Source: Candidatus Poribacteria bacterium | GTDB lineage: Bacteria; Poribacteria; WGA-4E; WGA-3G | Assembly (NCBI GenBank): GCA_965215265.1 | Contig: OZ244048.1 | Location: 1,312,001 to 1,376,000 of the forward strand | Length of the DNA: 64,000 nt | Reading direction: 5' to 3' | Shown: in pieces, positions 9,644-63,306 of the stretch | Position numbering within the stretch: the first letter of the stretch is position 1 | How the letters are laid out: each line of letters opens with the position of its first letter | Notes under the pieces: generated by a model | The model's database searches: none | Seen by the model: only the letters and a program-made list of their open reading frames with translations | Told to the model about the DNA's origin: nothing | Translations under genes and position numbers: made by a program

Positions 9644-9703
9644 ACGAGATTTACTCCGCACTTACAGCAGCATAAAACATCATAGTACTGAGTTATTCTA
9701 AAA
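9644..9703 (+). repeat. 60-bp dispersed unit (diverged copy)
   Basis: ACGAGATTTA...CATAA...ATAGTACTGAGTTATTCTAAAA aligns without gaps to the units at 11478 and 11538. Confidence 0.65.
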
Positions 9704-9711
9704 ACCTCTAT

Positions 9712-9728
9712 TGCATAAACGATGCCAA
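9712..9728 (-). promoter_or_regulatory. Putative sigma54 (-24/-12) promoter upstream of murA-hisD
   Basis: Minus strand TTGGCATCGTTTATGCA fits GG-N10-GC, ~185 bp upstream of the murA start. Confidence 0.55.
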
Positions 9729-9964
9729 ACCTATCTTTGTTACAAATATAGTGGTACAAGGCACGTAAACATTTTCGGGTTGTGTCAAAATAGACACATG
9801 TTATTTTACCATTCTTTTGAAATCACATTACCTCTTGTCTTAGTGGAAACGCGACAGCCCTTTTTTCGCTCGCTATCAAACAGATAAGCAGAATTCATTT
9901 GCACTAAATCGGAATCTTTGATAAAATCTAATTTCAATTTCTCTCATTTTATGAGGTAAAGCAG

Positions 9965-11017
9965 ATGGCAGACAAAACATATCGTATCGGAATTATCGGT
10001 TGTGGCGGTATGGGGCGTTCTCATGCCCGGAATTGGACAAGCACCGGCCGGGCAGAAGTTGTGACTGCATCAGACATCAGTGCTGATTCGGCTGCAAAAT
10101 TTGCTTCGGAGTTATCGCTTCCGACACACTATACTGATTTTAACGAGATGTGCGAGAAGGAAACGTTGGATATCGTGAGCATCACGACCTGGCAGAGCGT
10201 GCGTGCAGAGCCAACTATAGCGGCTGCCGAGAGCGGCGTTCTCGGTGTAATCACTGAAAAGCCGATGGCCGCATCGGTAGGTGATGCACAGGACATGATG
10301 GACGTTTGCGAGAAACATGGCACAAAACTTGTAGTTGGACATCAACGCCGGTTCAGCCCGCAAAACTGCGAGGCCCGCCGACTGATACAAGAAGGCGCAA
10401 TCGGCGAACCCCAAGCGATGCTCCGGCGAGATGGACACGGTTTACTGAATCGCGGCACGCACGAAATTGACGAGATGCGCTACATCCTTGGAGATCCAGA
10501 GCCGCTATGGCTCATCGGGCAGGTCGCACGCCGCACAGACCGGTGGGAACGGCGGGTCCGATGCGAAGATCTCTGCATGGCTGAAATCTGCTTTCAAGGC
10601 GGGATCCGCGGTATTTACGAAAGCGATTTGCCAGAGCCTGCACTGCGCGGGGATGTTGTTTACGGCAACGATGGGCAACTCCGCCGGGGTAGTGACGGCA
10701 CAATTGAACTGCTCAACAGCAAAGCATCTGGATGGCAATCGATTAAACCGCGCCAGAGTGAACCGAATCAGTTTGACGAGATGTTAGCCTGGATAGAAGG
10801 CGATATCGACGAACATCGGAACGCTGGCAAGCACGGACTCTGTACAATAGAAATTCTGATGGCGATTTATGAATCGCTTCGTATCAAAAATGTGGTGACG
10901 TTCCCACTAACGACGCGGCCGAATCCGCTGGATCTGTTGGTTGAAGGCGGAACCTTGCCGGTGTTTGTTGAGGGACGCTATGACATTCGCGCACCGTTCC
11001 CCGAACAGAAAAAGTAG
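9965..11017 (+). CDS. Gfo/Idh/MocA family oxidoreductase
   Basis: GIIGCGGMG, TEKPMA, GHQRRF, GTHEID. Confidence 0.92.
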   Translation: MADKTYRIGIIGCGGMGRSHARNWTSTGRAEVVTASDISADSAAKFASELSLPTHYTDFNEMCEKETLDIVSITTWQSVRAEPTIAAAESGVLGVITEKPMAASVGDAQDMMDVCEKHGTKLVVGHQRRFSPQNCEARRLIQEGAIGEPQAMLRRDGHGLLNRGTHEIDEMRYILGDPEPLWLIGQVARRTDRWERRVRCEDLCMAEICFQGGIRGIYESDLPEPALRGDVVYGNDGQLRRGSDGTIELLNSKASGWQSIKPRQSEPNQFDEMLAWIEGDIDEHRNAGKHGLCTIEILMAIYESLRIKNVVTFPLTTRPNPLDLLVEGGTLPVFVEGRYDIRAPFPEQKK

Positions 11018-11048
11018 CGGTGCCACAAATGATGAGATGCCCCCTTTA

Positions 11049-11072
11049 AGGGCAGGCTTCCGAGCCTGCCCT
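11049..11072. terminator. GC-rich hairpin between the convergent oxidoreductase gene and the phyH 3'-end copy
   Basis: AGGGCAGGCT-TCCG-AGCCTGCCCT; no clean U-tract. Confidence 0.5.
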
Positions 11073-11114
11073 GCCTTTGCTGAATTGTTCCTAAACTTAG
11101 ACGCTAATCCGCTT

Positions 11115-11251
11115 TTAGCACGTCACCTCTTTTCCTTCGCTACCGTAAACCGCCATTCGTTCGGCGGTTGTTATCTCCTCGCAACTCCCAGGTTTGTAAT
11201 GAAACTGGAGCGCACGGCGACGGGCACTCGAATGGTTAAACGGGCTACCAT
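11115..11251 (-). repeat. 137-bp direct repeat of the phyH 3' end (copy of 14213-14349)
   Basis: Base-by-base match with 4 mismatches clustered at the distal end; includes the stop codon. Confidence 0.95.
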
Positions 11252-11283
11252 AGTCATGCACCACTACCATGATGGTAACTTAT

Positions 11284-11493
11284 GAGGTGACGTGCTAATG
11301 ATTTTCAGGAATATCCCCAAAGTTGTCTGAACCGCTCGCTTTTCTTAACCCCTAACTATACGAAAATTTTTGTCTACTGCAGCCCCATGAAGGTTGCTGT
11401 AATGTTCAATCCACTATAAATCTCGTCAAAGCCTTTTGATGTTTTGATTTTTAAAGACATTACCTAAGGAGTCTCCGACGAGATTTACACACG
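11284..11493 (+). repeat. Left 210-bp inverted repeat (pairs with 14019-14227)
   Basis: Reverse complement of 14019-14227 with 1 indel and 2 substitutions; begins with the last 15 nt of phyH. Confidence 0.95.
11367..11426 (-). repeat. 60-bp dispersed unit inside the left IR
   Basis: Minus strand ACGAGATTTATAGTGG...GGGGCTGCAGTAGACAAAAA. Confidence 0.75.
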
Positions 11494-11597
11494 AGTACTC
11501 ACGACATAAGCGTTGACGGTACGGAGAGATACGAAAAACGAGATTTACACAGGAGTTTCCAAAACATAACCCTTGATGGTACGGAGATATACAAAAA
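11478..11597 (+). repeat. Two tandem 60-bp dispersed units
   Basis: ACGAGATTTACACA...GGTACGGAGA[GT]ATAC[GA]AAAA at 11478-11537 and 11538-11597. Confidence 0.9.
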
Positions 11598-11947
11598 AGC
11601 GTACCAAATGATGCTTTTTGGGGAGATAAGATGTACAATTTGTCTCATCTAACATTTTTCACCTCTAAAACGACTTATTCCGTTATTTTTTGTTAAATGT
11701 GAAAAATCACGACGGTATTCACAGATTTTTAGGTACGCAGACAGAAAAATGAAAAAAAATTGTCCAAATTCCTAAAAATTCTGAAAAAAGTGCAAATTAG
11801 GTATAAACTTTTTTGATCTCATCTTTATACATAACTATAGAACAGAAAAAAGAAAAGACATTCGTATTGTGATTTAGTTGTTGTTTACACAAAAGTGGAA
11901 GATGTGGTAAACTCACCCATGTCTTTCGTAAACGAAGGAGGTTTCTG

Positions 11948-12490
11948 ATGAACCGTTTCTTTTCTTACGCGATACTTTTTATCGCCATGCTCTGTGTAGG
12001 GCTGAGTTTTGTCTCAACGCACACCGAAGCCGCACTTGACATTCATTCAGGTTATGCTAACGACGTGCTCTCTCCGCAAGGTGACGAGCTGCCCTATACT
12101 TACGGTGAAGCCGTGGTAGAGAGTATGTGGACGAGTGGGCGTTGGGCGTATAGCACACACTCTATCTTCATCGGCAACTACGCTGGAGGCCCGTTTGGCC
12201 CACAAGATATTGACTTTGATGTTACCTACGTCTGCGAAATCAGGGGTACTAATCGTTTGGAGAGAGTTTTCGAGCAGTCGGTAAAAATCTTAGCGCCTTA
12301 CTATGACGTTGGTTGGGTAGATGCAACCTGGTCCGACAGCAACCGACAACTGTCTGTGCGGCGGGATGGGCTCCCTAATGAAGAGTACACTTTTGCCGCG
12401 TATACCGAACTTGATGCGAGAGATGCCGCTCGCGTTCGGGATTCAGCGACATGGCGGGCAGAATATTTAATCATAATTAATCCGTTTTGA
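11948..12490 (+). CDS. Secreted hypothetical protein (beta-rich)
   Basis: AAGGAGGT RBS, Sec signal peptide (TEA cleavage site), no recognised domain. Confidence 0.8.
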   Translation: MNRFFSYAILFIAMLCVGLSFVSTHTEAALDIHSGYANDVLSPQGDELPYTYGEAVVESMWTSGRWAYSTHSIFIGNYAGGPFGPQDIDFDVTYVCEIRGTNRLERVFEQSVKILAPYYDVGWVDATWSDSNRQLSVRRDGLPNEEYTFAAYTELDARDAARVRDSATWRAEYLIIINPF

Positions 12491-12553
12491 TGCCTTGAGA
12501 TGCCACACTTGAGGGGGAGCTCGCTCCCCCTCTCACCGCATAAGGAGATTCGT

Positions 12554-13576
12554 ATGAAACTTTTTTTCGCCCTGATGTTCGTGTTGCTTTTTGCTGCAAC
12601 CGCATCTCCAAAAATTGTGTTTTATTCCGAGCGTGATGGCAATAAAGAAATTTACATCATGAATGATGATGGCAGCCACCTTCGCAGAGTCACGGACAAT
12701 CCCGCGGCAGATCTCCGTCCCTTATGGGCACCAGATGGACAGACCATCGCATTCCAGCGCGGTAGCTACACACCGGACGGTAGACAAGTCTCAGATCTTA
12801 TCCTCATCAACCCAGACGGTAGCAACGAGAGAACTTTAGTAAACAACGATGAAGCGTTTTCGTCTGTGTATCCCGCTTTTTTCATGCGAGAGGGAAGGGA
12901 ACTTGCAATTGCCAGATGGGACCTGAACGCGCTCACTTTACGGCTTTTCTTCATGGATGTTGAAAGTGGTGTGACACGCCCACTCCGAGGCGTTGAGGAT
13001 ATAACAGATGCAGACATCTCCCCAGATGGCCGTTTCATCGCCTTTTCAAAGACACCGAGCTTTGAAAAGAACATCCACCTCGTCGCACCAGATGGACGCG
13101 GAGAGAAACCCCTCCTGCCACCTAATGCAGACCCCGATGTCCTACTCCTTCGCTTCTCTCCGCGCTGGGCACCGGATAGTAAACGCCTGATGTTTGTTGA
13201 AGAATGGCTTGATATTGTAGAGAAGGAAAACGAAGAGGGCCCTTTTATTGACTTTGTTGTCACAGAAAACAACCTGCTCATCTACCACATTGGCTCGGAA
13301 AAGACAGAACGCTTGCCGCTCCCACACGGGTTTCGCACGGCGACATCTTGTTGGATGAACAATAACCAGATTCTCTTTGCCGCAGATACCACAGGTTTGA
13401 TAACTAAAGTGCATGGCAACTACGACATTTACCACTACAACCTTACAAGTAGAACGCTGACGCAGCTCACCACACATACTGCAGCAGACAAGTCTCCTCG
13501 ATGGATAGCCGGCACGCTTGAGGTGTCTGCAAAACAAAAAAAAACAACGCAGTGGGGAAAAGTGAAGGCCGACTAG
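12554..13576 (+). CDS. TolB-like PD40-repeat secreted protein
   Basis: AAGGAG RBS before ATG 12554, signal peptide, IVFYSERDGNKEIY, WAPDG and SPDG repeats, C-terminal VSAKQKKTTQWGKVK motif. Confidence 0.85.
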   Translation: MKLFFALMFVLLFAATASPKIVFYSERDGNKEIYIMNDDGSHLRRVTDNPAADLRPLWAPDGQTIAFQRGSYTPDGRQVSDLILINPDGSNERTLVNNDEAFSSVYPAFFMREGRELAIARWDLNALTLRLFFMDVESGVTRPLRGVEDITDADISPDGRFIAFSKTPSFEKNIHLVAPDGRGEKPLLPPNADPDVLLLRFSPRWAPDSKRLMFVEEWLDIVEKENEEGPFIDFVVTENNLLIYHIGSEKTERLPLPHGFRTATSCWMNNNQILFAADTTGLITKVHGNYDIYHYNLTSRTLTQLTTHTAADKSPRWIAGTLEVSAKQKKTTQWGKVKAD

Positions 13577-13584
13577 ATTGATAG

Positions 13585-13683
13585 ATGAAGAGTACACTTT
13601 TGCCGCTCGCGTTTCGGATTCAGCGACGTGGCGGGCAGAATATTTAATCATAATTAATCCGTTTTGATGCCTTGAGATGCCAC
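13585..13683 (+). repeat. Duplicate of the 3' end of gene 11948-12490 (copy of 12378-12506 with a 30-bp deletion)
   Basis: Direct match; the deletion lies between two TGCCGC microhomologies (12394 and 12424); 3 substitutions. Confidence 0.92.
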
Positions 13684-13950
13684 TCGTTTTTTAAGAGCAC
13701 CGCGCCGGTGCTCAGAAACAGCAGTATGTTCAGAAAAATCAAGTAGGCCAAATCCGAGAAAGTACCGCCGATAGCGGCGTTTCCCCACGCAGTGCCACTG
13801 GTAAAGACAGGCATGCCACTTAAGTCCAGCGGTTCCACGTCACTCCAATTTTTCGGTGTGATGTTTGCTATAAAGGCATCTTCGTCTGACTTTACGAATC
13901 CAGCTTGTGAGGGCATATCGTTGATATTGACTCGCGTGAACCAGTTGCTA
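13684..13950 (-). pseudogene. 3' fragment of a membrane protein gene (ABC permease-like C-terminus)
   Basis: PLDLSGMPVF...DLAYLIFLNILLFLS resembles ABC-2-type permease C-termini; no intact 5' part. Confidence 0.45.
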
Positions 13951-13974
13951 CTTGAGAACGCCCCTTGTTCCTGC

Positions 13975-14034
13975 TTTTTGTATATTTCAGCCCCATCAAC
14001 GCTTAGGTATTGACAGCCCGTGTGAAAATCTCGT
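13975..14034 (-). repeat. 60-bp dispersed unit
   Basis: Minus strand ACGAGATTTTCACACG...AAGCGTTGATGGGGCTGAAATATACAAAAA. Confidence 0.85.
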
Positions 14035-14227
14035 CGGAGACTCCTTAGGGAATGTCTTTAAAAATCAAAACATCAAAGGCTTTGACGAGATTTATAGTGG
14101 ATTGAACATTACAGCAACCTTCATGGGGCTGCAGTAGACAAAAATTTTCGTATAGTTAGGGGTTAAGAAAAGCGAGCGGTTCAGACAACTTTGGGGATAT
14201 TCCTGAAAATCATTAGCACGTCACCTC
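14019..14227 (-). repeat. Right inverted repeat (pairs with 11284-11493); contains a 60-bp unit at 14085-14144 (+)
   Basis: Reverse complement of the left IR; overlaps the phyH stop codon. Confidence 0.95.
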
Positions 14228-15072
14228 TTTTCCTTCGCTACCGTAAACCGCCATTCGTTCGGCGGTTGTTATCTCCTCGCAACTCCCAGGTTTGTAATGA
14301 AACTGGAGCGCACGGCGACGGGCACTCGAACGGTTAACCGGACTGCCATGATGGAGTAAGCCGTGCCAGAAGAGACAGCCACCCGGTTTGAGAGGCACCA
14401 TCGTATCGCGTGCAACTGGGACATCTGTATCGCAAATCTGCCAATCGCGCCGTTTGAAATGAATCCTGGGACCCTCATTATGAGAACCCGGGATGATGTG
14501 CAGGCAGCCGTTTTCAGGCGTGGCTTCGTCAAGCGCTACCCACACCCCTACGACTGTCGTGCCGAAAGGGACATTAAAATAGGCACAATCCTGATGCCAC
14601 GGCTTTTCAGAACCGAATCGTGGCGGTTTCACTAACGCCATATCCTGGAAAAGTTCAGGTGCCTCGCCCATCATTTGTTCAAGGGTACGAAGCAGTCCTG
14701 CATGTGCTGCCATGGCGTTCAAGCGAGTTCATGATCAACAAATCGGAAAATTTTTCGGATTGCATCCCGACGTTCATCAGGGGCCATCTCGTTTTTACGT
14801 TTGGCGAGAGACGGTTCAAATTGGATTGCCCGGAAATCAGGACAGTTTCCATCCATCAGATAAACCATACCAGCCAAAGCGTCATCAACTTCCTTTTCAC
14901 TAAAGGCATCGTGGATGACGAGATAGCCGTGCTGATGGAAGTGTTGGATGTCAGCCTCGGTTACGGCTGAAAATCCACCACGCATCCCTTCTGCTACTGT
15001 ATCAAATCTATAAAGTTCCGCAGGATAAGGGATGGCTGATGTACTCTGTTCGCTTGCTGCTTCGGAATTCAT
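14213..15072 (-). pseudogene. Phytanoyl-CoA dioxygenase (PhyH) family gene with a single frameshift near 14722
   Basis: GGAGGT RBS and ATG at 15072. FHQHGYLVI in one frame; KPWHQD, WVALD, NGCL.IIPGSH, HHGS and RRA in the next. One base is missing at GAA-CT-CGC-TTG. May be a sequencing error. Confidence 0.8.
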
Positions 15073-15303
15073 AAAATACCTCCCAGTGGATTGTGAGTAA
15101 AAGGGAAGGGAAGTTCTCCCCACAAGCAGGGAGGAATCCCCTTTCTTTTCTGTCCTGACGGACAGAAAAAAAATACCTATCTTGCAACTTTCGGCTGTGT
15201 TAGTGATACTGCCAATGAATCAAGACGGAATGCGCGTATGGCATTCGACTCACCTGAATTTTGGTGTCGCTATCTTACTGACTCAACATTATAAGCTGCA
15301 TCC

Positions 15304-16317
15304 TTAGATCTCACCCCGGCTCTCCTGTTCAAGCAGGTCTAAGAAATCGTTAACGCGGTTAATAGCTGCTTGGGCACGTTCGCGGGCCGATTGACTTTTC
15401 TCTTCTTCCGACAGCCAGCACCGTCGTTGCGGAAGCCATTCCGTTTTTAGAGAACTAAGTTGATTTAGAAAATGCGGGTCCGCTGTCTCACTAACAAAAT
15501 ACTCTATCACACCGAGTAACCCGTACTTCCGATTTACCTCCATATCCTCTAATTCACCTACCATGTGGGCAAAGAGTTGTTGATTCCTATCCTGTCTTGC
15601 TTGTGCAACCTCACGTGAGGAAGCGGTAAGCAGTTTATCTACAAATTCCTGCTTAGAGTTAATCCACCTCGGTAGGTTCCTGACGTAGTCTTCCAAATCG
15701 AAATGCCCCCGCTGCAGCGCGAAGTGAGCATGGATATGAATGTTACGGAAGAACGCCGTATATCCAACATTTGGATCCATGGTATCCGCATCATAGAGAA
15801 TTTGATTCTCAATGTTCCCATATAGAAGTTTAAAATCTTCGGCAGTCAGATTCATCGGTTTTAGATGGGCCAACACAACGGCTGTTGCGGCTTCCACGAA
15901 CTCGCGCTCAAAGTCGTACATCGCCAATATATTTTCCGTAATCACAGCACCGGACTCATGATGCACTTTTCCATGGAGGTTGTGCTTATTGTACAGTTCA
16001 GTAACGACGTTCTGTCCACTTGGAGTGAGCACCTCGTTTAACCAGAAGCCGTTGTGGTCCAAAATCCGCTTGCCGTTGTCGTCTGTTAAGATGACACCGT
16101 CGTAACGTTTGGTGATGTCATGTAACGTCCCAGCGACTTCAAGTAACTTGACATCACCACCCTCACGTTTTCCCAGTTCCATGCTCAGCGCACGGACGCG
16201 GAGCGTGTGGTTCCAGGTATAGTGCCGCCATTGAAAGCCGACGCGGTTGTGTTCCCAGAGTTCAAACGTTTCATTCACTAAGGTTTCCAATTCATTCAAA
16301 ACTTGAGCGTAGTTCAT
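15304..16317 (-). CDS. HD-domain metal-dependent phosphohydrolase
   Basis: NHTLRV...LHDI...HHESG...H...YDADTMD. Confidence 0.85.
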   Translation of the reverse strand: MNYAQVLNELETLVNETFELWEHNRVGFQWRHYTWNHTLRVRALSMELGKREGGDVKLLEVAGTLHDITKRYDGVILTDDNGKRILDHNGFWLNEVLTPSGQNVVTELYNKHNLHGKVHHESGAVITENILAMYDFEREFVEAATAVVLAHLKPMNLTAEDFKLLYGNIENQILYDADTMDPNVGYTAFFRNIHIHAHFALQRGHFDLEDYVRNLPRWINSKQEFVDKLLTASSREVAQARQDRNQQLFAHMVGELEDMEVNRKYGLLGVIEYFVSETADPHFLNQLSSLKTEWLPQRRCWLSEEEKSQSARERAQAAINRVNDFLDLLEQESRGEI

Positions 16318-16455
16318 ATTTGAATGTTTTTAACCTCCTGTTTTCAGAGACTTTCTCGCCGTTGTCGTATTTTTAAGCACCTTTGCTAAGCGGTAATTGC
16401 CGCAGTTCTCCTATTAGCGATTTCGAGTCTTGAAGTTAGGCGAACCTCAGCCAAT

Positions 16456-17247
16456 TCATGGCTTATTGCCGTATGTGACGCGAATGAGTGACAACCCGTG
16501 CGCAGGTACCGACGGCCCAGCCGCTGCCCGATCCTTTGCTTTGATGATCCGACGGAGCTCCGCTGGCACGTTTTCGCAATTCACATATTTGAGTATCGTG
16601 CCGACAATAGCCCGAACCATCCCTCTCAGAAAGGAGTCTGCCTCAATTTCAAAATAGACGTGTTCGCCTGCCTTCCAGCAAGCTGCCTCATAAATTTCAC
16701 ACATAGGATTTAAACGATCGCTTCCAGTTCTTCGGAAAGCGGAAAAATCCTGTTTGCCTACAAGGTTTGCGCACAGAGCGTCAGCTCGCGAAATATCAAT
16801 AGTTTGTGCCGGATAGAAGTAACACCTATGGCGCGACAGTGCGGACGGATACGCACGATTCAAAATTGTATACCGATACCGCCGGCTTGTCGCACTGAAA
16901 CGAGCGTGAAAGTCCGACGGCACCTCCGTTGCTGCAAGGATAACTATATCCCTTGGCAGAATAGTATTGAGCCCTTTCTGAAAAGCGACAAGAGGTATCT
17001 CCGGTCTCGCATCTATTTTTTCTTTCTCACTCCCCACAGTAGTCTGTGCTAGATGGAAGTTAGCAACTTGCCCTTCAGCGTGAACACCTGTATCAGTCCT
17101 ACCAGCCCCAATAATTTGGACACGCGTTTTGGTTAACTTGCTCAGCGCATCCTCAACGGTGCCTTGAATTGTTGGCTGGTTAGGTTGTTTCTGCCATCCG
17201 TGATAATTGGTTCCGTCATATTCAAGTACCAGTTTGATGTTCCGCAT
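16456..17247 (-). CDS. truA: tRNA pseudouridine(38-40) synthase
   Basis: YDGTNYHGWQ, AGRTDTGVHA, FHARFSA, FLRGMVR. Confidence 0.97.
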   Translation of the reverse strand: MRNIKLVLEYDGTNYHGWQKQPNQPTIQGTVEDALSKLTKTRVQIIGAGRTDTGVHAEGQVANFHLAQTTVGSEKEKIDARPEIPLVAFQKGLNTILPRDIVILAATEVPSDFHARFSATSRRYRYTILNRAYPSALSRHRCYFYPAQTIDISRADALCANLVGKQDFSAFRRTGSDRLNPMCEIYEAACWKAGEHVYFEIEADSFLRGMVRAIVGTILKYVNCENVPAELRRIIKAKDRAAAGPSVPAHGLSLIRVTYGNKP

Positions 17248-48816: not shown

Positions 48817-48854
48817 ACATGTCAAACACAGTTCTATTCATAAGGAGAAATTCA

Positions 48855-51626
48855 ATGCCGAAAAAACCTATTGAGCATTATGCACACCCTGATAAACTGA
48901 CGAACAACCCGACCCAAGAACTCAGCGGCTTTGCCGAACCAGAAGAACACGCACCGACGCGCTACCCACGCGATATCGCACTGGATCCGCAACTCGTCTG
49001 GAAAGGCAAAGAACAGCAGAACAACACCGACCTCGAAGTAACGGCTCCACCTATCTACACTCAAGAGCATATCCAACCTCAAGCCATCATCGAAATACTA
49101 CGCACGCAACAACAGCAGAAGGACGCACCTCAAACCGAAATGCTCTTCGAAGGGTTCAACGAGCTCGATTTTAACCAACGGATTGAGTTCTACCAACACG
49201 AACAGAACTGGCATAACCGCTTCATCCTAGGCGATTCGCTCGTCGTCATGAACTCGCTCGCCGAAAAAGAGCAGCTCAGAAACGCAGTGCAGATGATCTA
49301 CTTTGATCCGCCATACGGAATTAAATTCAAAAGCAATTGGCAAGTCAGCACCCGAAGGCGAGATGTCGGCGATACGAAGCCGGAAGACGTGACACCCCAA
49401 CCGGAACAGGTTAAAGCCTATCGCGATACCTGGGAACTCGGGATCCACTCATACCTCGCCTATCTCCGCGACCGGCTGACTGTCGCGCACGAACTACTGA
49501 CGGATAGCGGCAGCATCTTCGTACAGATTAGCGATGAGAATGTGCATCTCGTCCGATGCCTGCTTGACGAAGTGTTCGGCAGTGAAAACTTCGTTAACAC
49601 GATTACATGGACTCGTGCCGGTATGACTTCTTCTAAGTTATTAGCTTCAGTCTCTGATTACCTTTTGTGGTACGCAAAAGATAAACCACGGATCAAATAT
49701 AATAAACTTTGGGTTGAATGGAATGAACGGACTCCGGATCCGCTCCTTAAGTCCTATACGCAAGTTGAATTAGAGGATGGAACCCGGCGAAGTATGACCC
49801 GAGAGGAGAGAAAAAATCCCGCATTGTTACCTAAAGGGTCTCGGCGATTTCTAGAAATCTTGGCATCATCACAGACGGGTAGTGGTGCTACATACAAATA
49901 TAATTTTGAAGGACATGATTTTATACCAATAGGTAAAAGTCGAGGTTGGCCAACAACTCTTGAGGGCTTAAATCGCCTTGCAAAGCAGAAAAGACTGGTA
50001 GGCAGAAAACGTACTTTGCTGTATATTCGATACGCAACTGATTCATCAGGGCGTGAAAGAACTAACCTCTGGACAGACACCGCCGGGTCAACTCCTGAAA
50101 GAAGGTACGTCGTAGAAACCAATCCCAAGGTTATCCAACGGTGTATTTTGATGACGACAGACCCCGGCGATCTCGTGCTTGATCCGACGTGTGGGAGCGG
50201 CACCACCGCTTATCTCGCAGAGCAGTGGGGCAGACGTTGGATAACGGTAGACACCTCTCGCGTCGCGCTGGCGTTGGCACGAACCCGCCTCATGTCCGCC
50301 AAATATCCGTACTACAAACTTGAAGATGCAGCTGACATCAAGCAGGGATTTGTTTATAAAACCGCACCGTATGTCAGCCTCTCAGACATGGCAAATAACA
50401 CTGAAATTGACGATATTCATGCCAAATATGCAGAGAAACTGGATCCACTGATTAAATACTTAACGTATACAAAGGGGGGGGCAAAGACGCGGAAAGAACC
50501 GGAAGTGTCAGATAAAAGTCCTCAAAAGTTTAAAAACCGTTCGGACAAATCGGACAATAGAAAGACGTGGAAAGAGTGGGAAGTGCCGACAGAAACTGAC
50601 CCGGAATGGGATGCAGAATTTCAGAAGGTGCACCGGCAATGGCTCGAGCTCAGGCGGGAGCGGCAGCGTGAGATGGATGCCTCGACTGCGAGACGTGCAA
50701 AAAACGAAATTCTCATAGATCAGCCGTTCCAAGACAGAAAACGGGTGCGTGTGAGTGGACCCTTCACGGTAGAGAGTTTATCCCCGCATCTTGTGTTTGA
50801 CCCGACTGATGCTGAGCAGGCTCCCCCAATGTCCGTTCCCTCGAAAAGCTCGCAAGATTACCATAAATATATCCTTGAATACCTCAAAACCAGCGGTGTG
50901 CAGAATCGGCTTAAACAACAGCGGATAACCTTTGACTGGGTGGAGGCACGTGCGAGTGAGTGGCTTCATGCTGAGGGCGTATATACGGACGCGAACGGAA
51001 AAACCCAAACTGCTGCGATTAGCATCGGACCACAATACGGGACTGTCGGAAGAGAGTGGATCAACGAAGCCGCCAAAGAAGCCGTCCGCCGGGTACCCAA
51101 GTTCGATCTGCTCATTGTTGCCGGTTTCGCCTTTGAGGGGTATACCGCCGATGAATCCAAACGCCTGGGCAGCTTGACTATTCTTCCTGTTAAGATGAGT
51201 CCAGAATTAATGGTGCCCGAGCTCAAGAACACAGGCCAGGGCAACCTATTCATGGTATTCGGGGAGCCGGACGTGGAGATTGTGACGCATGAAGATGGCA
51301 ACCTCTCTGTAAAACTTTTGGGTGTCGATGTATACGATGCGGTGAAGGGATTAATCCGTTCGGAGACACCAGCCGACATCGCGTGTTGGTTCATTGACAC
51401 TGCTTATAGGGATGAGGCGTTCTTCGTGCGACATGCATACTTTACCGGTGAAGGTGAACCGTATCAGCAGCTGCAGCGTGCACTGAATTCCGAGATTGAC
51501 GAAGTGGCGTGGGAGGCACTCTATCGGACCGAAAGCCTCCCGTTCGCAAAGCCTGCATCTGGCAAAATCGCAGTGAAGGTCATCAACCATTATGGCGACG
51601 AAGTGATGAAGACTTATAACGTATAG
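48855..51626 (+). CDS. Site-specific adenine DNA methyltransferase (Type III Mod-like, beta class)
   Basis: AAGGAG RBS; YFDPPYG (motif IV) precedes LVLDPTCGSGTT (motif I). Confidence 0.93.
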   Translation: MPKKPIEHYAHPDKLTNNPTQELSGFAEPEEHAPTRYPRDIALDPQLVWKGKEQQNNTDLEVTAPPIYTQEHIQPQAIIEILRTQQQQKDAPQTEMLFEGFNELDFNQRIEFYQHEQNWHNRFILGDSLVVMNSLAEKEQLRNAVQMIYFDPPYGIKFKSNWQVSTRRRDVGDTKPEDVTPQPEQVKAYRDTWELGIHSYLAYLRDRLTVAHELLTDSGSIFVQISDENVHLVRCLLDEVFGSENFVNTITWTRAGMTSSKLLASVSDYLLWYAKDKPRIKYNKLWVEWNERTPDPLLKSYTQVELEDGTRRSMTREERKNPALLPKGSRRFLEILASSQTGSGATYKYNFEGHDFIPIGKSRGWPTTLEGLNRLAKQKRLVGRKRTLLYIRYATDSSGRERTNLWTDTAGSTPERRYVVETNPKVIQRCILMTTDPGDLVLDPTCGSGTTAYLAEQWGRRWITVDTSRVALALARTRLMSAKYPYYKLEDAADIKQGFVYKTAPYVSLSDMANNTEIDDIHAKYAEKLDPLIKYLTYTKGGAKTRKEPEVSDKSPQKFKNRSDKSDNRKTWKEWEVPTETDPEWDAEFQKVHRQWLELRRERQREMDASTARRAKNEILIDQPFQDRKRVRVSGPFTVESLSPHLVFDPTDAEQAPPMSVPSKSSQDYHKYILEYLKTSGVQNRLKQQRITFDWVEARASEWLHAEGVYTDANGKTQTAAISIGPQYGTVGREWINEAAKEAVRRVPKFDLLIVAGFAFEGYTADESKRLGSLTILPVKMSPELMVPELKNTGQGNLFMVFGEPDVEIVTHEDGNLSVKLLGVDVYDAVKGLIRSETPADIACWFIDTAYRDEAFFVRHAYFTGEGEPYQQLQRALNSEIDEVAWEALYRTESLPFAKPASGKIAVKVINHYGDEVMKTYNV

Positions 51627-51678
51627 TCGCGCAATATGAATCCGCGGCAGTCCAATCTCTAAAGAGGAAGAGATATAG

Positions 51679-54600
51679 ATGTCAAAAATTACCATAGAAA
51701 ACCCAGTGATTAATAGTCCGTTTGAGGAACCGCAGCGGCATTTCAGATTTAATGCACGCGGACTCACTGAAGAGATTGTTGAGGGGAGACGACGGAGTGA
51801 ATACTTCATGCCCTTCCCAAAACCGAAAAAGCAATCTCAGGGTACCCAGATGCAATTTGAACTCCCCGAGCGGGATCTGCGGGAGGCAAATACGTTTATC
51901 AACAACGTTCGGACGCAGGTGGCGGCGTGGCGAAACAGCGGTTACCCCGGCGTAACCCCGACGACGAAACGGTTGCTCGAACACTGGAACAACCCTGAAA
52001 ACGAACCCCGGCTCTATTTCTGCCAACGCGAAGCCGTAGAAACCGCCATCTATCTCAACGAGTATGACAACAGGCGACGAAACAATTCATTTTATACCCA
52101 GCTTGTCACAGCGAACGAAGAGGCAAATCCGGACCTCTTCCGCATCGCCTTCAAAATGGCGACGGGCAGCGGTAAGACGGTTGTGATGGCGATGCTCATC
52201 GTGTACCATACGTTGAATAAGCGTGCGAACCCTCGGAATAGCCGCTTTAGCGATGCTTTTCTGATTGTCACACCGGGGGTAACCATCCGCGATCGACTCC
52301 AGGTCCTCCGTCCAGAAGAGCCGGAAAATGACTATCAGAAAATGAATCTGATCCCGCGAGATGGGTATGATGCCCTCGGTCAGGCGAAAATCGTCATCAC
52401 GAATTACCATGCATTTTTGTGTCGAAAGAGAAGCGAATTAAGCAGAATAGGAGAAAAAGTACTGGGCGAAAATGCTAAAAACTTCAGAGAAACGCCGGAA
52501 GAGATGGTAGCACGTGTCTGCCGTGGGCTCGATAAGAAGAAAGATATTGTTGTGCTAAACGATGAGGCACATCACTGTTATCGCCCCAAAACCGATAAGG
52601 AATCCGCACCCACAGAAGACGAGGCGCGTTTATGGATAAACGGGCTTGAGGCCGTGGAAGCGAAACTCGGCATAAAACAGGTTTATGATCTGTCTGCTAC
52701 CCCGTTCTTTCTCAAAAACGCCGGTTATTCAACCACTACGTCGAATGGGAAGAAATTGAAAGAAGGAGTCCTATTTCCGTGGGTAGTCTCCGATTTTGCG
52801 TTAATTGACTCGATCGAGTGCGGTATCGCCAAAGTCCCACGTGTCCCAGTCGCTGATGATACAATGAGAGGCGACCCGATTTATCTATGTCTCTGGGAGG
52901 TTGTGCGCCCCAAACTCAGGGGTATACCTTCTCGCGGTGAGCCGCAGCTGCCACAAGAATTAGAAACCGCGCTCCAAACCCTCTATAGCAATTATGAGAA
53001 GACGTATGACTTGTGGCAGAAAGAACCGCACGGGTTAACCCCACCTGTCATGATTGTCGTTTGCAATAACACGAAAGTCTCCAAACGTGTTTACGACTGG
53101 ATGGCTGGGTGGGAGAAAAAGACTGCTGCTGGTGACAAGGTCGTTGTCAAAGGCAAACTCCCAATTTTCAATAACGAGCGTGACGGGCACTGGAGCGATA
53201 AACTGAACACACTTCTCATTGATAGTAAGCAGCTGGAATCCGGCGAGGCTCTGAAAGGTGAATTTAAAAAAGCAGTTCGCACTCAGATAGAACAGTTCAT
53301 GCGCAAGAAGAACGTGGAGAAAGTTACAGATGCCGAACTATTGCGCGAAGTGATGAACACCGTTGGGAAGCGTGGTCAGCTCGGTGAACACATTAAATGT
53401 GTCATCTCCGTCTCCATGCTAAGTGAGGGCTGGGATGCGAAGCGTGTGACGCATATCCTTGGCGTGCGTGCCTTCAGTACGCAGCTGCTCTGTGAACAGG
53501 TCGTCGGCAGGGGTTTACGACGTTCCAGTCACGAGGTCGAACACAGAATTCTTAATGTAAATGGAAAGCAGCTCGAATTAGAAACGTTTCCGCCAGAATA
53601 CGCGGAGGTCTACGGGGTTCCGTTCTCATTCATTCCTGCGACGGGGAGTGGTAGAATCATCCGTCCGTTACCTTCAACCACAGTGGAGGCGCTCCCTGAA
53701 CGGAAAGGAGCATGTGAAATTAAATTTCCGAAGGTCGTGGGGTACCGTCGCCAATTGCCGCCTGACACGATTCGCGTGCTTTTCACGCAGGCATCGCGTT
53801 ATGAGCTCTCTACTGCTGAAGTGCCATCTATGACAGAAATTGAGGGGATAACAGGCGGTATTGAAGAGGTCCGCTTGCGTGTCGCGGAGGAACGCCTCCA
53901 GAAAAGCGAGTATTTTCTTGCGAACGTCGTCTTGCAGATGCATGAGCAGGATCCGGCTAACGACGCAAGGTGGTGGCTCTTCCCACAAGTGCTCCGCATC
54001 ACACGCCAATGGATGAAAGAGTGCGTTACCTATAAAGACAATACTTATCCGCAGTTTTTCCTGATTGGTGAAATCGCACGCAAAGCAGCACATCGGATTC
54101 ATAATGCAATCCTTAGGGCAGAACAACAAGCCCAAACCAGTCAATCGGCATCGGAAAACGAGCCATCACTGCAGGGGTTTCGCCCAATTTTTCTAGACAA
54201 AATGCACGTCGGATCCACTGAAGGTGTGTGGTTTGAAACAACCCAGCCCACCTGGGAGACACATCCGCAGAAGTGTCATATCTCGCATGTCGTCGCGCAG
54301 ACAGACTCATGGGAGCAGAAAACCGCCCAGGCATTAGAACAGATGCCGGAGGTGCTCGCGTACGTTAAAAATCACAATATGGATTTCACGATTCCATACA
54401 TCAATCACAACGGAGAGAGCCGACAATATGTTCCGGACTTCATCGCTCAGATCCGGAAACAGCACACGGATTCTGACGACGATATCGTGAATCTTATCTT
54501 GGAAACTTCCGGCAAAGCACGCGAAGATAAGGTGCAGAAGGTAAACACAGTCGAAAATATGTGGTTACCGGCTGTGAACACCCATGGTGAGTTTGGCGAG

Positions 54601-54690
54601 TGGACTTTTCTAGAAATCACCGATCCGTGGGATATGCAGAACACTATCCGTGAATTCATGAACGAATATAGTTCGTCATCGCTACGGTAG
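51679..54690 (+). CDS. Type III restriction-like helicase-endonuclease (Res subunit)
   Basis: MATGSGKT, NDEAHH, LSATP, SMLSEGWD, EQVVGRGLRR, C-terminal YVPDFI...ILETSG nuclease motif. Confidence 0.92.
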   Translation: MSKITIENPVINSPFEEPQRHFRFNARGLTEEIVEGRRRSEYFMPFPKPKKQSQGTQMQFELPERDLREANTFINNVRTQVAAWRNSGYPGVTPTTKRLLEHWNNPENEPRLYFCQREAVETAIYLNEYDNRRRNNSFYTQLVTANEEANPDLFRIAFKMATGSGKTVVMAMLIVYHTLNKRANPRNSRFSDAFLIVTPGVTIRDRLQVLRPEEPENDYQKMNLIPRDGYDALGQAKIVITNYHAFLCRKRSELSRIGEKVLGENAKNFRETPEEMVARVCRGLDKKKDIVVLNDEAHHCYRPKTDKESAPTEDEARLWINGLEAVEAKLGIKQVYDLSATPFFLKNAGYSTTTSNGKKLKEGVLFPWVVSDFALIDSIECGIAKVPRVPVADDTMRGDPIYLCLWEVVRPKLRGIPSRGEPQLPQELETALQTLYSNYEKTYDLWQKEPHGLTPPVMIVVCNNTKVSKRVYDWMAGWEKKTAAGDKVVVKGKLPIFNNERDGHWSDKLNTLLIDSKQLESGEALKGEFKKAVRTQIEQFMRKKNVEKVTDAELLREVMNTVGKRGQLGEHIKCVISVSMLSEGWDAKRVTHILGVRAFSTQLLCEQVVGRGLRRSSHEVEHRILNVNGKQLELETFPPEYAEVYGVPFSFIPATGSGRIIRPLPSTTVEALPERKGACEIKFPKVVGYRRQLPPDTIRVLFTQASRYELSTAEVPSMTEIEGITGGIEEVRLRVAEERLQKSEYFLANVVLQMHEQDPANDARWWLFPQVLRITRQWMKECVTYKDNTYPQFFLIGEIARKAAHRIHNAILRAEQQAQTSQSASENEPSLQGFRPIFLDKMHVGSTEGVWFETTQPTWETHPQKCHISHVVAQTDSWEQKTAQALEQMPEVLAYVKNHNMDFTIPYINHNGESRQYVPDFIAQIRKQHTDSDDDIVNLILETSGKAREDKVQKVNTVENMWLPAVNTHGEFGEWTFLEITDPWDMQNTIREFMNEYSSSSLR

Positions 54691-60566: not shown

Positions 60567-61727
60567 ATGAGGCAAACTACGGCACCAGAGACATCCAAAG
60601 AAACACAAAGCAAACGGCAGTTTTGGGACCCTTTCTTCAAAGAGTTCCTGGCCCTGCTGTTCTCTGGGCTGGGTGCCTCTATCCAGACAGAGATAGAAGT
60701 CAACCGGTTACCGCAGCGTATAGATGCACTCGCTCTCCTCGAAAGTGCCGCAGCCCGGGCGAGAGTGCGGGCCAATCCGCTGCTCTCTTACTTACGCACG
60801 TATAATCTGTTCGAGTTCAAAGGGCAGAACGACCTGTTGAATGGTTCGGAGTATCACCGGATTTCTATGCGTGCGTGCGGCTATCTCGCAGCGCATAAGG
60901 TGCCAGACACGGAAGTTACCTTGACGATAGTGTCGTCTCGGAAGCCGCGGGCACTGCTTACCCACCCGCCTTTTGGGGTATCCTGGGTGCAGCTCGCCCC
61001 TGGACATTATCGGCACCGGGAAGATCTGCCGGTGCATCTATTGGTTTGTAATGAAGTGGAGGTGGTTGAGCCGAATTATTGGTTGCTGCTGTTTGCGTCG
61101 TCGCGGAAACAGTTTCGTGCGTTCCTGCGGCGGGTGATAACGGAAGAGAATACGTTATATTTTGACTCCGCGTTGTATTTGCAGCCGGAAGTCACGGAGG
61201 AGGTTTGTGAAATGGAAGGACATCAAGATTTATTTCAGAGTCGTCTTCGCGAAGTTGCGACGACTTTGGGTCCGAAGTTGCTGTCTGCACTGACATCGGA
61301 GGAGCGTGCGGACATGCTGGCCCGCTTGAGTCCTCAAGACCGGGCGGATCTGCTCGCACGGCTGCCCGCTGAAGACCGGGCGGACATGTTAGCAAGGTTA
61401 TCTACGGCAGACCGTGCGGATATGTTGGCGAGTTTACCGGTTGCGGAGCGTGCGGATATGTTGGCGAGTTTACCGGTTGCGGAGCGTGCGGATATGTTGA
61501 CGAGTTTACCGGTTGCGGAGCGTGCGGATATGTTGGCGAGTTTACCGGTTGCGGAGCGTGCGGACATGTTGGCACGGCTGGGTCCCGAAGCGCGTGCGGA
61601 CATGTTGGCACGGCTGGCGGCGATGCCTGACGCTGAATGGGTAGAGGTGCTCCGGGGCTTGTCGATGGAGATGCGTGTGAAACTGGCGCGGCAGTTGTTG
61701 GCTGCAGAGAATCGAACGGAGGAGTAG
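60567..61727 (+). CDS. PD-(D/E)XK nuclease-like (Rpn-like) protein with C-terminal 12-aa repeats
   Basis: DPFFKE, QRIDAL...FEFKG; paralog of 34423-35301. Confidence 0.78.
   Translation: MRQTTAPETSKETQSKRQFWDPFFKEFLALLFSGLGASIQTEIEVNRLPQRIDALALLESAAARARVRANPLLSYLRTYNLFEFKGQNDLLNGSEYHRISMRACGYLAAHKVPDTEVTLTIVSSRKPRALLTHPPFGVSWVQLAPGHYRHREDLPVHLLVCNEVEVVEPNYWLLLFASSRKQFRAFLRRVITEENTLYFDSALYLQPEVTEEVCEMEGHQDLFQSRLREVATTLGPKLLSALTSEERADMLARLSPQDRADLLARLPAEDRADMLARLSTADRADMLASLPVAERADMLASLPVAERADMLTSLPVAERADMLASLPVAERADMLARLGPEARADMLARLAAMPDAEWVEVLRGLSMEMRVKLARQLLAAENRTEE
61212..61727 (+). CDS. Predicted nested in-frame protein (171 aa, RpnS-like)
   Basis: GGAGGAGGT ending at 61204, 7-nt spacer, in-frame ATG. 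Confidence 0.55.
   Translation: MEGHQDLFQSRLREVATTLGPKLLSALTSEERADMLARLSPQDRADLLARLPAEDRADMLARLSTADRADMLASLPVAERADMLASLPVAERADMLTSLPVAERADMLASLPVAERADMLARLGPEARADMLARLAAMPDAEWVEVLRGLSMEMRVKLARQLLAAENRTEE
61302..61625 (+). repeat. 9 x 36-bp coding tandem repeat (ERADMLASLPVA)
   Basis: Central four units are nearly identical at the DNA level. Confidence 0.92.
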
Positions 61728-61947
61728 CACGGTAGGTGCACCTGCGGCTCACCCGCTGCTGCTTTTGTCAGCGAGATAATGGTAAACAGGAATGACGGCC
61801 GCCAACTGCAGAGGCCTGAACTTCACAATAAGTCGCATACGCAAGGGGCCAACCTTAATCAGTTTTTGGTTTTGGGGAAAGGTGATGACAGTTCCGATGT
61901 GAGCAAGGGGCCGGGCGGATAGCGTGCTCCGCCCGGAACTTAGAAAG

Positions 61948-62169
61948 GTTGATGGTACGGAGAGATATAAAAAATGGATATAAACATAAGCAGGCTCTGG
62001 CGAGATTTACATCTGATTTTACACAACCTAAGCACCGATGGTATTGAAATATACAAAAAAATGAATCTAAACAGAGAGAGGATTTGGGGTCGCCCGCCCA
62101 CCCAAATCCTTGAGATTTGACACAGTTTTATCAAAACATCAGGCGTTGCCGTGCTGCAGTATACAAAAA
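61948..62169 (+). repeat. Cluster of 60-bp dispersed units (partial 61948-61973; full 62000-62059 and 62110-62169) with a 10-bp hairpin between the full units
   Basis: GAGATTT...TATACAAAAA at 60-bp length; AGGATTTGGG-N12-CCCAAATCCT at 62079-62110. Confidence 0.8.
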
Positions 62170-62176
62170 AAATGTT

Positions 62177-63253
62177 TTACGGGATGGGTAAATGTGCGAC
62201 AACGCCTGCATGGTCTGATGGCCACAGCCCGGACGGTAGCAGGTCTGAAGGCTTATCCCCCACGGTGTGTGTGATGATAGGCATTCCTACTTCAAAATTC
62301 TTGACAAAAATCTGGTCAATGCGCTTTGTTAATTGACTGCTTTGATTTTCCAGCATTGCAGCTTGACAACAAGTGTTTCCAGTGCCTTCTGTAGGCATCT
62401 GCCAGGTGTCGACGTATCCGTCTGACAGTAAGATTTGATAAGCTGTTCCGTCTGGCGCTGCGGTGTTGAAATCTCCCAATAAGATAATAGGCAAAGTTTC
62501 ATCGCGAAGTGCCTGAATCAGTTCGTGAGTTTGGGCGATGCGAATCGTTTCGGCAAACGCCTCCAGATGTGTATTGACAACGCGATAGGTAACGCCGGAG
62601 ATAGTTGCGTCGATTGCTGTATATCCGCGTGGTACGCTAAAGTTAAGGGGTTCAATTAACAGGGCTGTCGGGTACGTTTGACTGCTGCTCCGTGATACTT
62701 CAACGTCGCTGCGTGCGAGGATAACATCATAGTCGGTTAACCGAATATCATCAACGCCGGTATCGGAAAACATAGGCATTTCAATGTCAATGTTTTGAAC
62801 TTTAGCAGCAACTTTATAATTTAAGTCCTCGGCTTGCAGTGCGGCGAGCAAAATTTCAAGGAAATCCAAAATGACTGTTTCAGCAGGGACTTCACCGCCT
62901 GCGATTCTATCGCCAGGGGTTTGCCGTCGCACCAATGAAATTTCCTGCAATCCAATGAGGTGAGGCTGAGATGCCTGGATGGATTTAACAATCGCCTTAG
63001 CTCGTGCTGGAAAATCAGAGGCGATGACTTGATTGTACATATCAGTGACTGCCCGGGGTATCTCCAATAGATTCGTTGTATCCAAAATGGATTCAGCACT
63101 TGCCCCTACATAGACGTTGTAAGTCATCACCGTAAGCGGTGCGTCAAAAGAGATAGAAGTGTCAGGGGGTGTGACGGTATCGGTTATTTTTTCGCAGGCT
63201 GAAAGGGTGACTAGTATTAAGATTAACGAAAAAAGAATTTTTACTCTATACAT
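62177..63253 (-). CDS. Endonuclease/exonuclease/phosphatase (EEP) family lipoprotein
   Basis: MYRVKILF...LSAC lipobox, MTYNV, GLQE, NTHL, LGDFN, RIDQIF, SDH. Confidence 0.9.
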   Translation of the reverse strand: MYRVKILFSLILILVTLSACEKITDTVTPPDTSISFDAPLTVMTYNVYVGASAESILDTTNLLEIPRAVTDMYNQVIASDFPARAKAIVKSIQASQPHLIGLQEISLVRRQTPGDRIAGGEVPAETVILDFLEILLAALQAEDLNYKVAAKVQNIDIEMPMFSDTGVDDIRLTDYDVILARSDVEVSRSSSQTYPTALLIEPLNFSVPRGYTAIDATISGVTYRVVNTHLEAFAETIRIAQTHELIQALRDETLPIILLGDFNTAAPDGTAYQILLSDGYVDTWQMPTEGTGNTCCQAAMLENQSSQLTKRIDQIFVKNFEVGMPIITHTVGDKPSDLLPSGLWPSDHAGVVAHLPIP

Positions 63254-63254
63254 A

Positions 63255-63306
63255 TTTTTGTATATTTCAGCCCTCCAACGGCTGATGTTTTTTGTATATT
63301 TCAGCC
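63255..63306 (-). repeat. Two partial dispersed units (37 bp and 18 bp)
   Basis: TTTTTGTATATTTCAGCC at 63255 and 63289; 63255-63291 is a 31/37 inverted match to 62133-62169. Confidence 0.8.

What the first reader, a model, noticed from the sequence alone, without database searches (positions are those of the whole stretch)
9644..63306. Fixed-length 60-bp dispersed site family marking accessory cassettes
Seen: eight full units of 60 bp at 9644(+), 11367(-), 11478(+), 11538(+), 13975(-), 14085(+), 62000(+) and 62110(+), plus partial right halves at 61948(+), 63255(-) and 63289(-). Approximate consensus ACGAGATTTACA-N14-ACmTAAsCsTTGATGGkrykGArATATACAAAAA: conserved ends, variable middle, constant length. 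All are intergenic and non-palindromic, and occur as tandem, divergent (~50-bp gap) or inward-facing pairs around accessory genes. Inference: constant spacing between conserved boxes fits a multi-protein DNA site, such as a recombination or transposon-end site, rather than a REP or terminator. It may belong to an undescribed gene-cassette capture system acting in trans; no recombinase is encoded in the window.
Basis: partly seen in the sequence, partly recalled or inferred. Interest (0 to 1): 0.82.

Follow-up and report, generated by a model that had tools for sequence, protein, structure and literature searches.

The report
Phage-linked one-ended repeat in Poribacteria
The 60-base sites are real, but they are part of a roughly 87-base mobile repeat that has filled hundreds of gaps between ordinary genes in one sponge-symbiont species and seems to come from just behind a phage DNA-packaging gene; they are not markers of captured gene cassettes.

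Summary
Observation confirmed; the cassette reading is mostly not supported. The unit is the 3' part of a ~87-bp element (~26-bp leader + 60 bp). There are 619-640 units genome-wide, none in a reversed control and none in 60 relatives. Against 1.23 Mb of a same-genus genome, elements occupy 49 of 545 conserved gaps, 16 of 106 insert edges (p=0.07) and 17 of 168 synteny-break ends; inward pairs bracket 2 of 53 inserts. One is the window's 3.1-kb insert, absent in one conspecific run, but bounded by a 137-bp phyH duplication rather than by units. The A-rich end is fixed and the other end varies. Insertions show no long target duplication and no conserved fold. Dozens of copies carry cut-off tails of a terminase-small-subunit-like gene; the tails differ mostly at synonymous sites (64 vs 15; 113), so they come from many working alleles. 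No intact enzyme tied to the family was found. Best model: ends of phage-like elements, pasted in one-ended, then reshuffled. Earlier notes of this scan describe the same family in other windows of this genome.

The parts
9644..9703 (+). Old, degenerate unit without a leader, in the gap upstream of murA
   Evidence: Profile score 22.2. A degenerate orthologous copy is in G001 (score 6.9). The gap to murA is 186/176 bp in G000/G001 against 57 bp in G004 and G012.
11115..11251 (.). Left copy of a 137-bp direct repeat (3' end of the phyH-like gene); outer boundary of the 3.1-kb insert
   Evidence: 97% identical to 14213-14349; joint 11114->14213 in run X8
11284..11436 (.). Left arm of a perfect 153-bp inverted repeat: one unit plus 83 bp beyond its A-rich end
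   Evidence: junction spanned by a contig of run X7, 10872-11422
11367..11426 (-). Full 60-bp unit, left arm of doublet 1
11427..11477 (.). Doublet centre: two 20-bp leaders head to head around a short palindromic joint (51-bp class)
11478..11597 (+). Two tandem units; the outer A-rich end is the left edge of the cargo
11598..13974 (.). Accessory cargo: a 180-aa secreted ORF (11948-12490), a TolB-like beta-propeller gene (12500-13576) between 83-bp direct repeats, and a 3' gene piece open right up to the unit end (13644-13973, minus strand)
   Evidence: Absent at this site in G001, G004, G012 and in run X8; TolB part skipped in a contig of run X5. Families. Frames.
13975..14034 (-). Full unit whose A-rich end is joined into the middle of a reading frame
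14035..14084 (.). Doublet centre (50-bp class)
14085..14144 (+). Full unit, identical to 11367(-)
14213..14349 (.). Right copy of the 137-bp direct repeat (functional phyH 3' end)
61942..62169 (+). Three-part array (partial unit, leader + unit, unit): a 222-bp, 91%-identical, 5'-truncated inverted copy of an array 7.8 kb away at G000:C1:1381795-1382005, both ending at the A-rich end
63255..63306 (-). Two 5'-truncated tandem right halves pointing at the start of the exo/endonuclease-phosphatase gene
   Evidence: the gene is next to radical SAM in G002 and G004 too

Best explanation
A species-specific, non-autonomous mobile repeat of about 87 bp (leader + 60-bp unit) with one fixed end (the A-rich 3' end) and one variable end. 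SHOWN: it is inserted into genes and gaps without a long target duplication, often with loss of 0-40 bp of target. It is joined by its fixed end to unrelated partners at many positions. It forms 60-62-bp tandems and head-to-head doublets. Leader and core are freely reassorted. Its natural place is directly behind the stop codon of terminase-small-subunit (TerS)-like genes, whose cut-off tails ride on dozens of copies and come from many working alleles. INFERRED: the element is the cis site of a family of phage- or satellite-like elements of this species. TerS binds the spaced boxes, and a partner nuclease supplied in trans, most simply the large terminase of a visiting phage, cuts at the A-rich end. 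The freed end, with a variable length of upstream DNA, is captured at chromosomal breaks by microhomology. Recombination among copies (exchange at the short dyad between leader and core, array copying, local patches) built the mosaics. Selection kept copies in gaps, favouring variants whose end supplies a ribosome-binding site. The window's 3.1-kb insert is a by-product of this end-joining plus homologous recombination, not the output of a dedicated cassette system.
For: Polarity: 951 of 1,326 fragments keep the 3' end against 581 the 5' end. The same targets are joined at different positions to the same end. Empty-site pairs show no long duplication. Three TerS C-terminal variants all stop at the leader. 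29 tails of one variant: 61 of 87 differences at third codon positions, 64 synonymous vs 15 non-synonymous codons. The protein matches PHROG TerS families (best 1.4e-11) and TerS clusters in the Atlas (0.93); distant Poribacteria homologues precede a large terminase. Gene and repeat share one distribution: G000 only among 40-60 relatives. Linkage falls to about 0.035 across the leader/core dyad against about 0.10 inside the core. Orientation: 133 sense vs 43 antisense singles in tandem gaps. GGAG-type ends are followed by a long ORF start in 45 of 204 cases vs 29 of 400.
Against: No large terminase was found in G000. No parent element carrying terS plus unit was found outside this genome. Homologous terS loci in 12 other Poribacteria genomes, in the part of the output seen, had no units nearby. 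None of 257 CRISPR spacers matches the family or terS. The fold search did not single out TerS. Patchiness (next gap occupied 0.39 vs 0.106 baseline; closest copy within 10 kb 15% vs 1.3%) needs local copying that end capture alone does not explain. The window's 153-bp inverted repeat extends 83 bp past the fixed end. No Ku was found, so the joining route is not classical NHEJ.
Confidence: 0.45

Rival explanations
1. Rolling-circle, one-ended transposition (IS91/ISCR-like): the A-rich end is an origin nicked by an HUH enzyme that is missing from this assembly, and copies extend a variable distance upstream, into the terS-like gene when they start at a source locus.
For: Fixed end downstream of a gene, variable upstream end, no long target duplication. 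Whole arrays are copied as 5'-truncated blocks. One-ended transposition is described in PMC13181058 (passages).
Against: No Y1 transposase. The Y2 and Rep_1 searches were blank but their controls were silent too. No target tetranucleotide after the A-run. No conserved hairpin. The linked gene has no nuclease match.
Confidence: 0.2
2. Domesticated binding sites: the lone TerS-like protein with two helix-turn-helix domains binds about 600 sites to regulate or organise DNA, and the sites are kept because they supply leaders and ribosome-binding sites.
For: One intact, apparently promoter-bearing gene. Fixed spacing of boxes without folding. Sense bias and RBS-like ends at start codons.
Against: Clean insertions inside genes. 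114 of 241 20-kb bins are empty while others hold about 30 fragments. Absent from 60 relatives. It does not explain the tails from many alleles.
Confidence: 0.12
3. A dedicated cassette-capture system: inward-facing units are recombination sites that excise and insert accessory genes.
For: The window's cargo is edged exactly by A-rich ends, one fused mid-frame. It is polymorphic among conspecifics. Insert edges are weakly enriched (odds ratio 1.8).
Against: 2 of 53 inserts are bracketed and 49 of 86 occupied gaps are conserved gaps. The empty allele keeps no unit and is defined by a 137-bp host repeat. No shared host cargo among array copies. The only tyrosine recombinase hit is broken.
Confidence: 0.08
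4. The doublet is the res-type site of the small serine recombinase at G000:C1:3344472, and it spread from there.
For: A doublet with a near-symmetric centre lies directly upstream of the gene. The gene was not found in 36 same-family genomes at E<1e-20. A dyad with a linkage break lies between leader and core.
Against: About 7% of all genes have a unit upstream. The three closest resolvase relatives (62-64% identical) have no unit-like sequence upstream. It does not explain the terS tails or the fixed A-rich end.
Confidence: 0.06
5. Retroposition of a terS transcript end by the genome's DGR reverse transcriptase (SINE/LINE-like 5' truncation).
For: Fixed A-rich 3' end, variable 5' truncation. 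One reverse transcriptase is present, with a DGR layout.
Against: Close copies differ by A/G and C/T equally (76 vs 71), so there is no adenine-specific signature. No long target duplication. The tails come from many alleles, not from the one resident gene.
Confidence: 0.05

Closest known systems
BIME/REPIN elements moved by RAYT (PMC3116915, passages read)
   Same: Hundreds of lineage-specific copies in gaps, inverted doublets, tandem arrays, one linked single-copy gene
   Different: Units are not palindromic, doublet arms are only about 60% alike, singles insert cleanly, no Y1 transposase, and the linked gene is TerS-like
MIRUs of mycobacteria (PMC12548453, one passage read)
   Same: Short, apparently mobile repeats inside operons, biased to the sense direction and sitting at start codons
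   Different: No conserved internal ORF was tested or evident here; doublets are common; there is a link to a phage-type gene
BOX elements of pneumococci (PMC3049150, passages read)
   Same: Modular composite repeats with tandem middle units that change the sequence upstream of genes
   Different: One fixed end, head-to-head doublets, no predicted stem-loop
IS91/ISCR one-ended transposition (PMC13181058, passages read)
   Same: Fixed end downstream of a gene, variable other end
   Different: No HUH gene found, no target tetranucleotide, no end palindrome
Phage and satellite pac/cos sites bound by TerS, including pseudo-pac transduction (recalled; search listing only)
   Same: Spaced boxes next to a terS gene and a defined DNA end
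   Different: The site lies behind the gene where terL normally follows, there is no terL in the genome, and the site itself is amplified hundreds of times

Membership tests
MITE (TIR class) | Terminal inverted repeats on each mobile copy | tested here: not met
   Singles and tandems insert without TIRs; doublet arms average 60.5% identity, below random pairs at 64.8%
MITE (TIR class) | Fixed target-site duplication | tested here: not met
   At most 0-3 bp, ambiguous in A-runs, in the clean empty-site pairs; others lost 4-40 bp
MITE (TIR class) | Cognate IS with matching ends in the genome | tested here: inconclusive
   No rve or IS110 hit; other DDE families were not searched
REP/REPIN-RAYT | Palindromic unit forming a hairpin | tested here: not met
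   Consensus fold has 3 invariant pairs and no covariation; mean DNA folding z about -0.5
REP/REPIN-RAYT | Y1 HUH transposase (RAYT) in the genome | tested here: not met
   PF01797: 0 matches in G000 (95% complete), control rang in 6 of 14
Integron attC / gene cassettes | Sites at the edges of single accessory genes, with an integrase | tested here: not met
   2 of 53 inserts bracketed; the only PF00589 hit has an internal stop
IS91/ISCR one-ended elements | Fixed ori end and variable far end | tested here: met
IS91/ISCR one-ended elements | Tetranucleotide target next to the ori end | tested here: not met
   No dominant word after the A-run in 604 free ends
IS91/ISCR one-ended elements | Y2 HUH transposase | tested here: inconclusive
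   0 matches, but the control was silent
Terminase packaging site (pac/cos) | Adjacent to a terS-family gene | tested here: met
Terminase packaging site (pac/cos) | TerS fold of the linked protein | tested here: inconclusive
   Model pLDDT 82.5 with the helix pair plus beta-hairpin order expected (expectation recalled); TerS structures appear only among weak hits (E 0.33; Z 4.5-4.9)
Terminase packaging site (pac/cos) | Large terminase present | tested here: not met
   PF03237 blank; tblastn with two Poribacteria TerL proteins gives best E 0.53
Terminase packaging site (pac/cos) | Binding and cleavage at the site | not testable with these tools
   needs biochemistry or virion reads
Rfam RNA families | Covariance-model match | tested here: not met
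   0 matches in the window at gathering threshold
MIRU | Internal ORF translationally coupled to the downstream gene | not tested
   only sense bias and ATG adjacency were measured

The most novel reading that the evidence does not exclude
A phage DNA-packaging end has become a selfish chromosomal element: terminase-made ends carrying the TerS site are captured and multiplied hundreds of times. The lone double-HTH TerS left in the chromosome then marks host regions for cutting and packaging by visiting phages, so the sites drive their own spread and the transfer of nearby host genes. That would be a transposase-free class of mobile DNA.
Probability: 0.25. Interest if true: 0.9.

Novelty: new variant of a known kind. 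Interest (0 to 1): 0.6.

Why it matters
For BOX elements, MIRUs and similar non-palindromic interspersed repeats I know of no established origin or mobilising enzyme (own knowledge). Here the repeat still carries pieces of the gene it was born next to, and that gene is phage-packaging-like rather than a transposase. This makes the origin of such a family directly testable. The family has also rewritten the translation-start regions of many conserved operons in one species of a dominant sponge symbiont. If the terminase model holds, it is a new route to mobile DNA and possibly to host-directed transduction.

Tried and rejected
Searches for the repeat elsewhere: blastn in 40 relatives, a pattern in 60 relatives, IMG/VR (24) and plasmids (87) all gave nothing outside G000. 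The 21 metagenome pattern hits all failed the full profile. A second apparent remnant in G001 lies inside a conserved coding alignment and was dropped as chance. Parent-element searches with P0001, P0002 and P0154 in viral contigs and with P0002 in genome contigs gave nothing useful; the phage collection gave one weak hit. The genomic context of the closest homologues (P0002, P0003, P0020, P0154) remains unseen. Enzyme searches in G000: Y1 transposase, Ku, IS110, rve and Terminase_6N were blank with working controls. Y2 transposase and Rep_1 were blank with silent controls. No multicopy gene family is consistently tied to units. A DGR signature was rejected. RNA or ssDNA structure was rejected. 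CRISPR targeting of the family was not seen. The share of near-identical array pairs ending at an A-rich end (77 of 121) is not used as evidence, because loci often end there anyway. Ortholog divergence is the same in dense and empty regions. No RNA holder was listed for window 8001-17000. Fold searches gave no significant match. Literature: searches found no description of this family or of amplified terminase sites (listings only; 0 papers in 122 and 98); PMC3909097 has no mention of intergenic repeats (term search, 125). No supplements were read.
Full report
Observation. A position profile iterated on the whole genome (G000, 4.83 Mb, one contig; window = C1:1312001-1376000) finds 640 units above 18 bits and 619 above 25, with none above 15 in the reversed genome. 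No Rfam family matches the window. The organism is named as Poribacteria by earlier scan notes; the large WD40, LamG and PhyH-type protein families fit that (the fit is from my own knowledge).

Anatomy. The 60-bp unit is preceded by a conserved 20-26-bp leader, giving a monomer of about 87 bp. Of 147 minus-then-plus neighbours, 113 lie within 300 bp, with centres peaking at 35, 43 and 50-51 bp; these are two leaders head to head. Same-strand tandems peak at 61 bp (29 + 29). Doublet arms are not copies of each other (60.5% identity against 64.8% for random pairs; 46 doublets). There is no conserved fold. Variation in the leader is nearly independent of variation in the core (mean normalised mutual information about 0.035 across the short dyad at the leader/core joint, about 0.10 inside the core; 329 distinct copies), so copies exchange parts there. 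An ungapped local scan gives 1,326 fragments (38 in the control): 951 keep the A-rich 3' end, 581 the leader end and 349 both. Where a flank exists in paralogous copies (51 of 402 terminal flanks), the A-rich end is joined to the same target at different positions, within about 2 bp of its own terminus. No target word follows the A-run in 604 free ends.

Range and age. A degenerate pattern occurs 391 times in G000 and never in 60 relatives, including the same-genus G001 (blastn agrees for 40). One exception shows an older wave: the worn unit at 9644 has a worn orthologue in G001, and the gap holding it is 120-130 bp longer in both genomes than in G004 and G012.

Is it a cassette marker? I compared G000 with 1.23 of the 4.0 Mb of G001 (761 orthologues; own gene calls; tblastn at 65% identity or more over 60% of the length or more). 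Elements occupy 49 of 545 gaps conserved in both genomes, 16 of 106 edges of G000-specific inserts (odds ratio 1.8, p=0.07), 4 of 44 gaps inside inserts and 17 of 168 synteny-break ends (p=0.65). Inward-facing pairs bracket 2 of 53 inserts. In the window, 1 of 5 real inserts carries units; the 5.9-kb restriction-modification insert carries none (a sixth row, 743 vs 667 bp, was set aside as not an insert). In conserved operons the elements have replaced the native gap, often up to the ATG. Singles in tandem gaps are 133 sense against 43 antisense (p=7e-12). Ends with a GGAG box are followed by a long ORF start in 45 of 204 cases against 29 of 400 (p=4e-7). Occupied gaps come in patches (0.39 after an occupied gap, baseline 0.106, fading over 5-10 gaps), and a copy's closest relative lies within 10 kb in 15% of cases against 1.3% expected.

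The window's insert. G001, G004 and G012 have the oxidoreductase and phyH-like genes side by side. In run X8, a conspecific strain, one contig at flank depth joins 11114 to 14213 and skips 3,098 bp. Runs X5, X6 and X7 cover parts of the insert and its junctions, and one X5 contig skips the TolB-like gene between 83-bp direct repeats (contigs only, 4 of 23 listed runs laid). The insert is therefore real and polymorphic. Its inner cargo is edged exactly by A-rich ends, one of them fused into an open frame, which fits end-joining. But the outer edges are a 137-bp duplication of the phyH 3' end, the empty allele keeps no unit, and the 153-bp inverted repeat runs 83 bp past a unit end. Homologous recombination set these edges, not site-specific exchange. 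The array at 61942-62169 is a 222-bp, 5'-truncated inverted copy of one 7.8 kb away, placed around conserved genes.

Insertion footprint. Of 438 loci, 56 had both flanks alignable to G001 and 7 aligned to within 12 bp on both sides. Together with paralogous empty sites these show a 171-bp and a 168-bp doublet and 84-87-bp monomers inserted with at most 0-3 bp duplicated, two of them inside a gene. Other cases replaced 4-40 bp of target.

Origin. Many singles follow a cut-off gene end. One intact gene remains (C1:3557480-3558202, 240 aa, two helix-turn-helix domains); its stop lies at the start of a leader. It matches TerS families in PHROGs and the Atlas. It belongs to a family of mostly 160-200-aa metagenomic proteins, and two distant Poribacteria homologues precede a large terminase. 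The fold search is inconclusive. Three different C-termini all end at the leader. For 29 tails of one type, 61 of 87 differences from their consensus are at third codon positions and 64 of 79 changed codons are synonymous (the search motif itself limits variation in the last ~20 bases). The tails are therefore samples of many working alleles, which points to a population of parent elements rather than decay from the one resident gene. The gene, like the repeat, was not found in 40 relatives except one weak HTH hit. Homologues occur in 12 of 175 other genomes of the phylum, with no units nearby in the loci seen (output partly cut).

Enzyme. None was found. There is no Y1 transposase, Ku, IS110, rve or large terminase. 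The Y2 and Rep_1 searches were blank with silent controls. The genome has one broken tyrosine recombinase and one DGR reverse transcriptase, but copies show no adenine-biased changes. One serine resolvase has a doublet upstream, but its relatives lack units. I commit to terminase-made ends captured by microhomology (0.45). That it is a one-ended mobile repeat born behind terS-like genes I hold at about 0.85. Rivals are listed with their odds.

Comparison and novelty. It works like the interspersed mosaic repeats (REPIN/BIME, BOX, MIRU; passages read in PMC3116915, PMC3049150, PMC12548453) and shares the one-ended pattern of IS91 (passages, PMC13181058). It fails the membership tests for MITE, REPIN, integron and IS91. 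No paper describing it turned up. The scan has noted the family before in other windows of this genome, including the terS link. New here are the synteny test against the cassette idea, the conspecific empty allele, the insertion footprints, the linkage break and the synonymous signal in the tails. Verdict: real, a new variant of a known kind with an unusual phage-packaging link; interest 0.6, and about 0.9 if the terminase model is confirmed.

Noticed in passing
window 12424-12506 and 13601-13683: The TolB-like gene lies between 83-bp direct repeats that duplicate the end of the 180-aa ORF; a contig of run X5 lacks it. A second, nested gene gain or loss with the same 'duplicated gene end' layout.
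   Followed up: partly
window 14213-15123: The phyH-like gene is split into two frames in the window; runs X5, X7 and X8 show a one-base difference at 14726, so it may be an assembly error or a rare allele.
   Followed up: no
window about 9710-9727 (-): A motif conserved in G000, G001, G004 and G012 upstream of murA that resembles a sigma-54-type promoter (consensus recalled).
   Followed up: no
G000:C1, e.g. 3925600-3925656, 1206498-1206922: A second, hairpin-forming repeat family (about 57-70 bp, bulged stem) that often sits inside the units at the leader/core joint or after position 9.
   Followed up: partly
G000:C1, e.g. 477197, 479000, 1213432, 4522401: A third small element with short inverted ends inserted at one position (43/44) of many units, like an IS630-type MITE (label recalled).
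   Followed up: no
G000:C1:555346, 926413, 1680510, 2322503, 4311496, 4332991: 36-37-bp unique pieces between 29-31-bp duplications inside doublet centres or units, consistent with off-target CRISPR spacer insertion as earlier notes propose.
   Followed up: partly
G000:C1:3344256-3345100: A small serine resolvase gene with a doublet directly upstream; its C-terminal part is interrupted by the hairpin family.
   Followed up: partly
G000:C1:150619, 2453937, 2773701, 3745651, 3824783, 4280704: A ~307-aa multicopy family (Rpn-like by eye, not scanned) has a unit directly before its promoter in 6 of 7 copies.
   Followed up: no
G000:C1:3910679-3910706: One spacer of the large CRISPR array matches the chromosome over 28 of 28 bases.
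   Followed up: no
window 48810-54690: A type III restriction-modification pair absent at this site in G001, with no units at its edges.
   Followed up: partly
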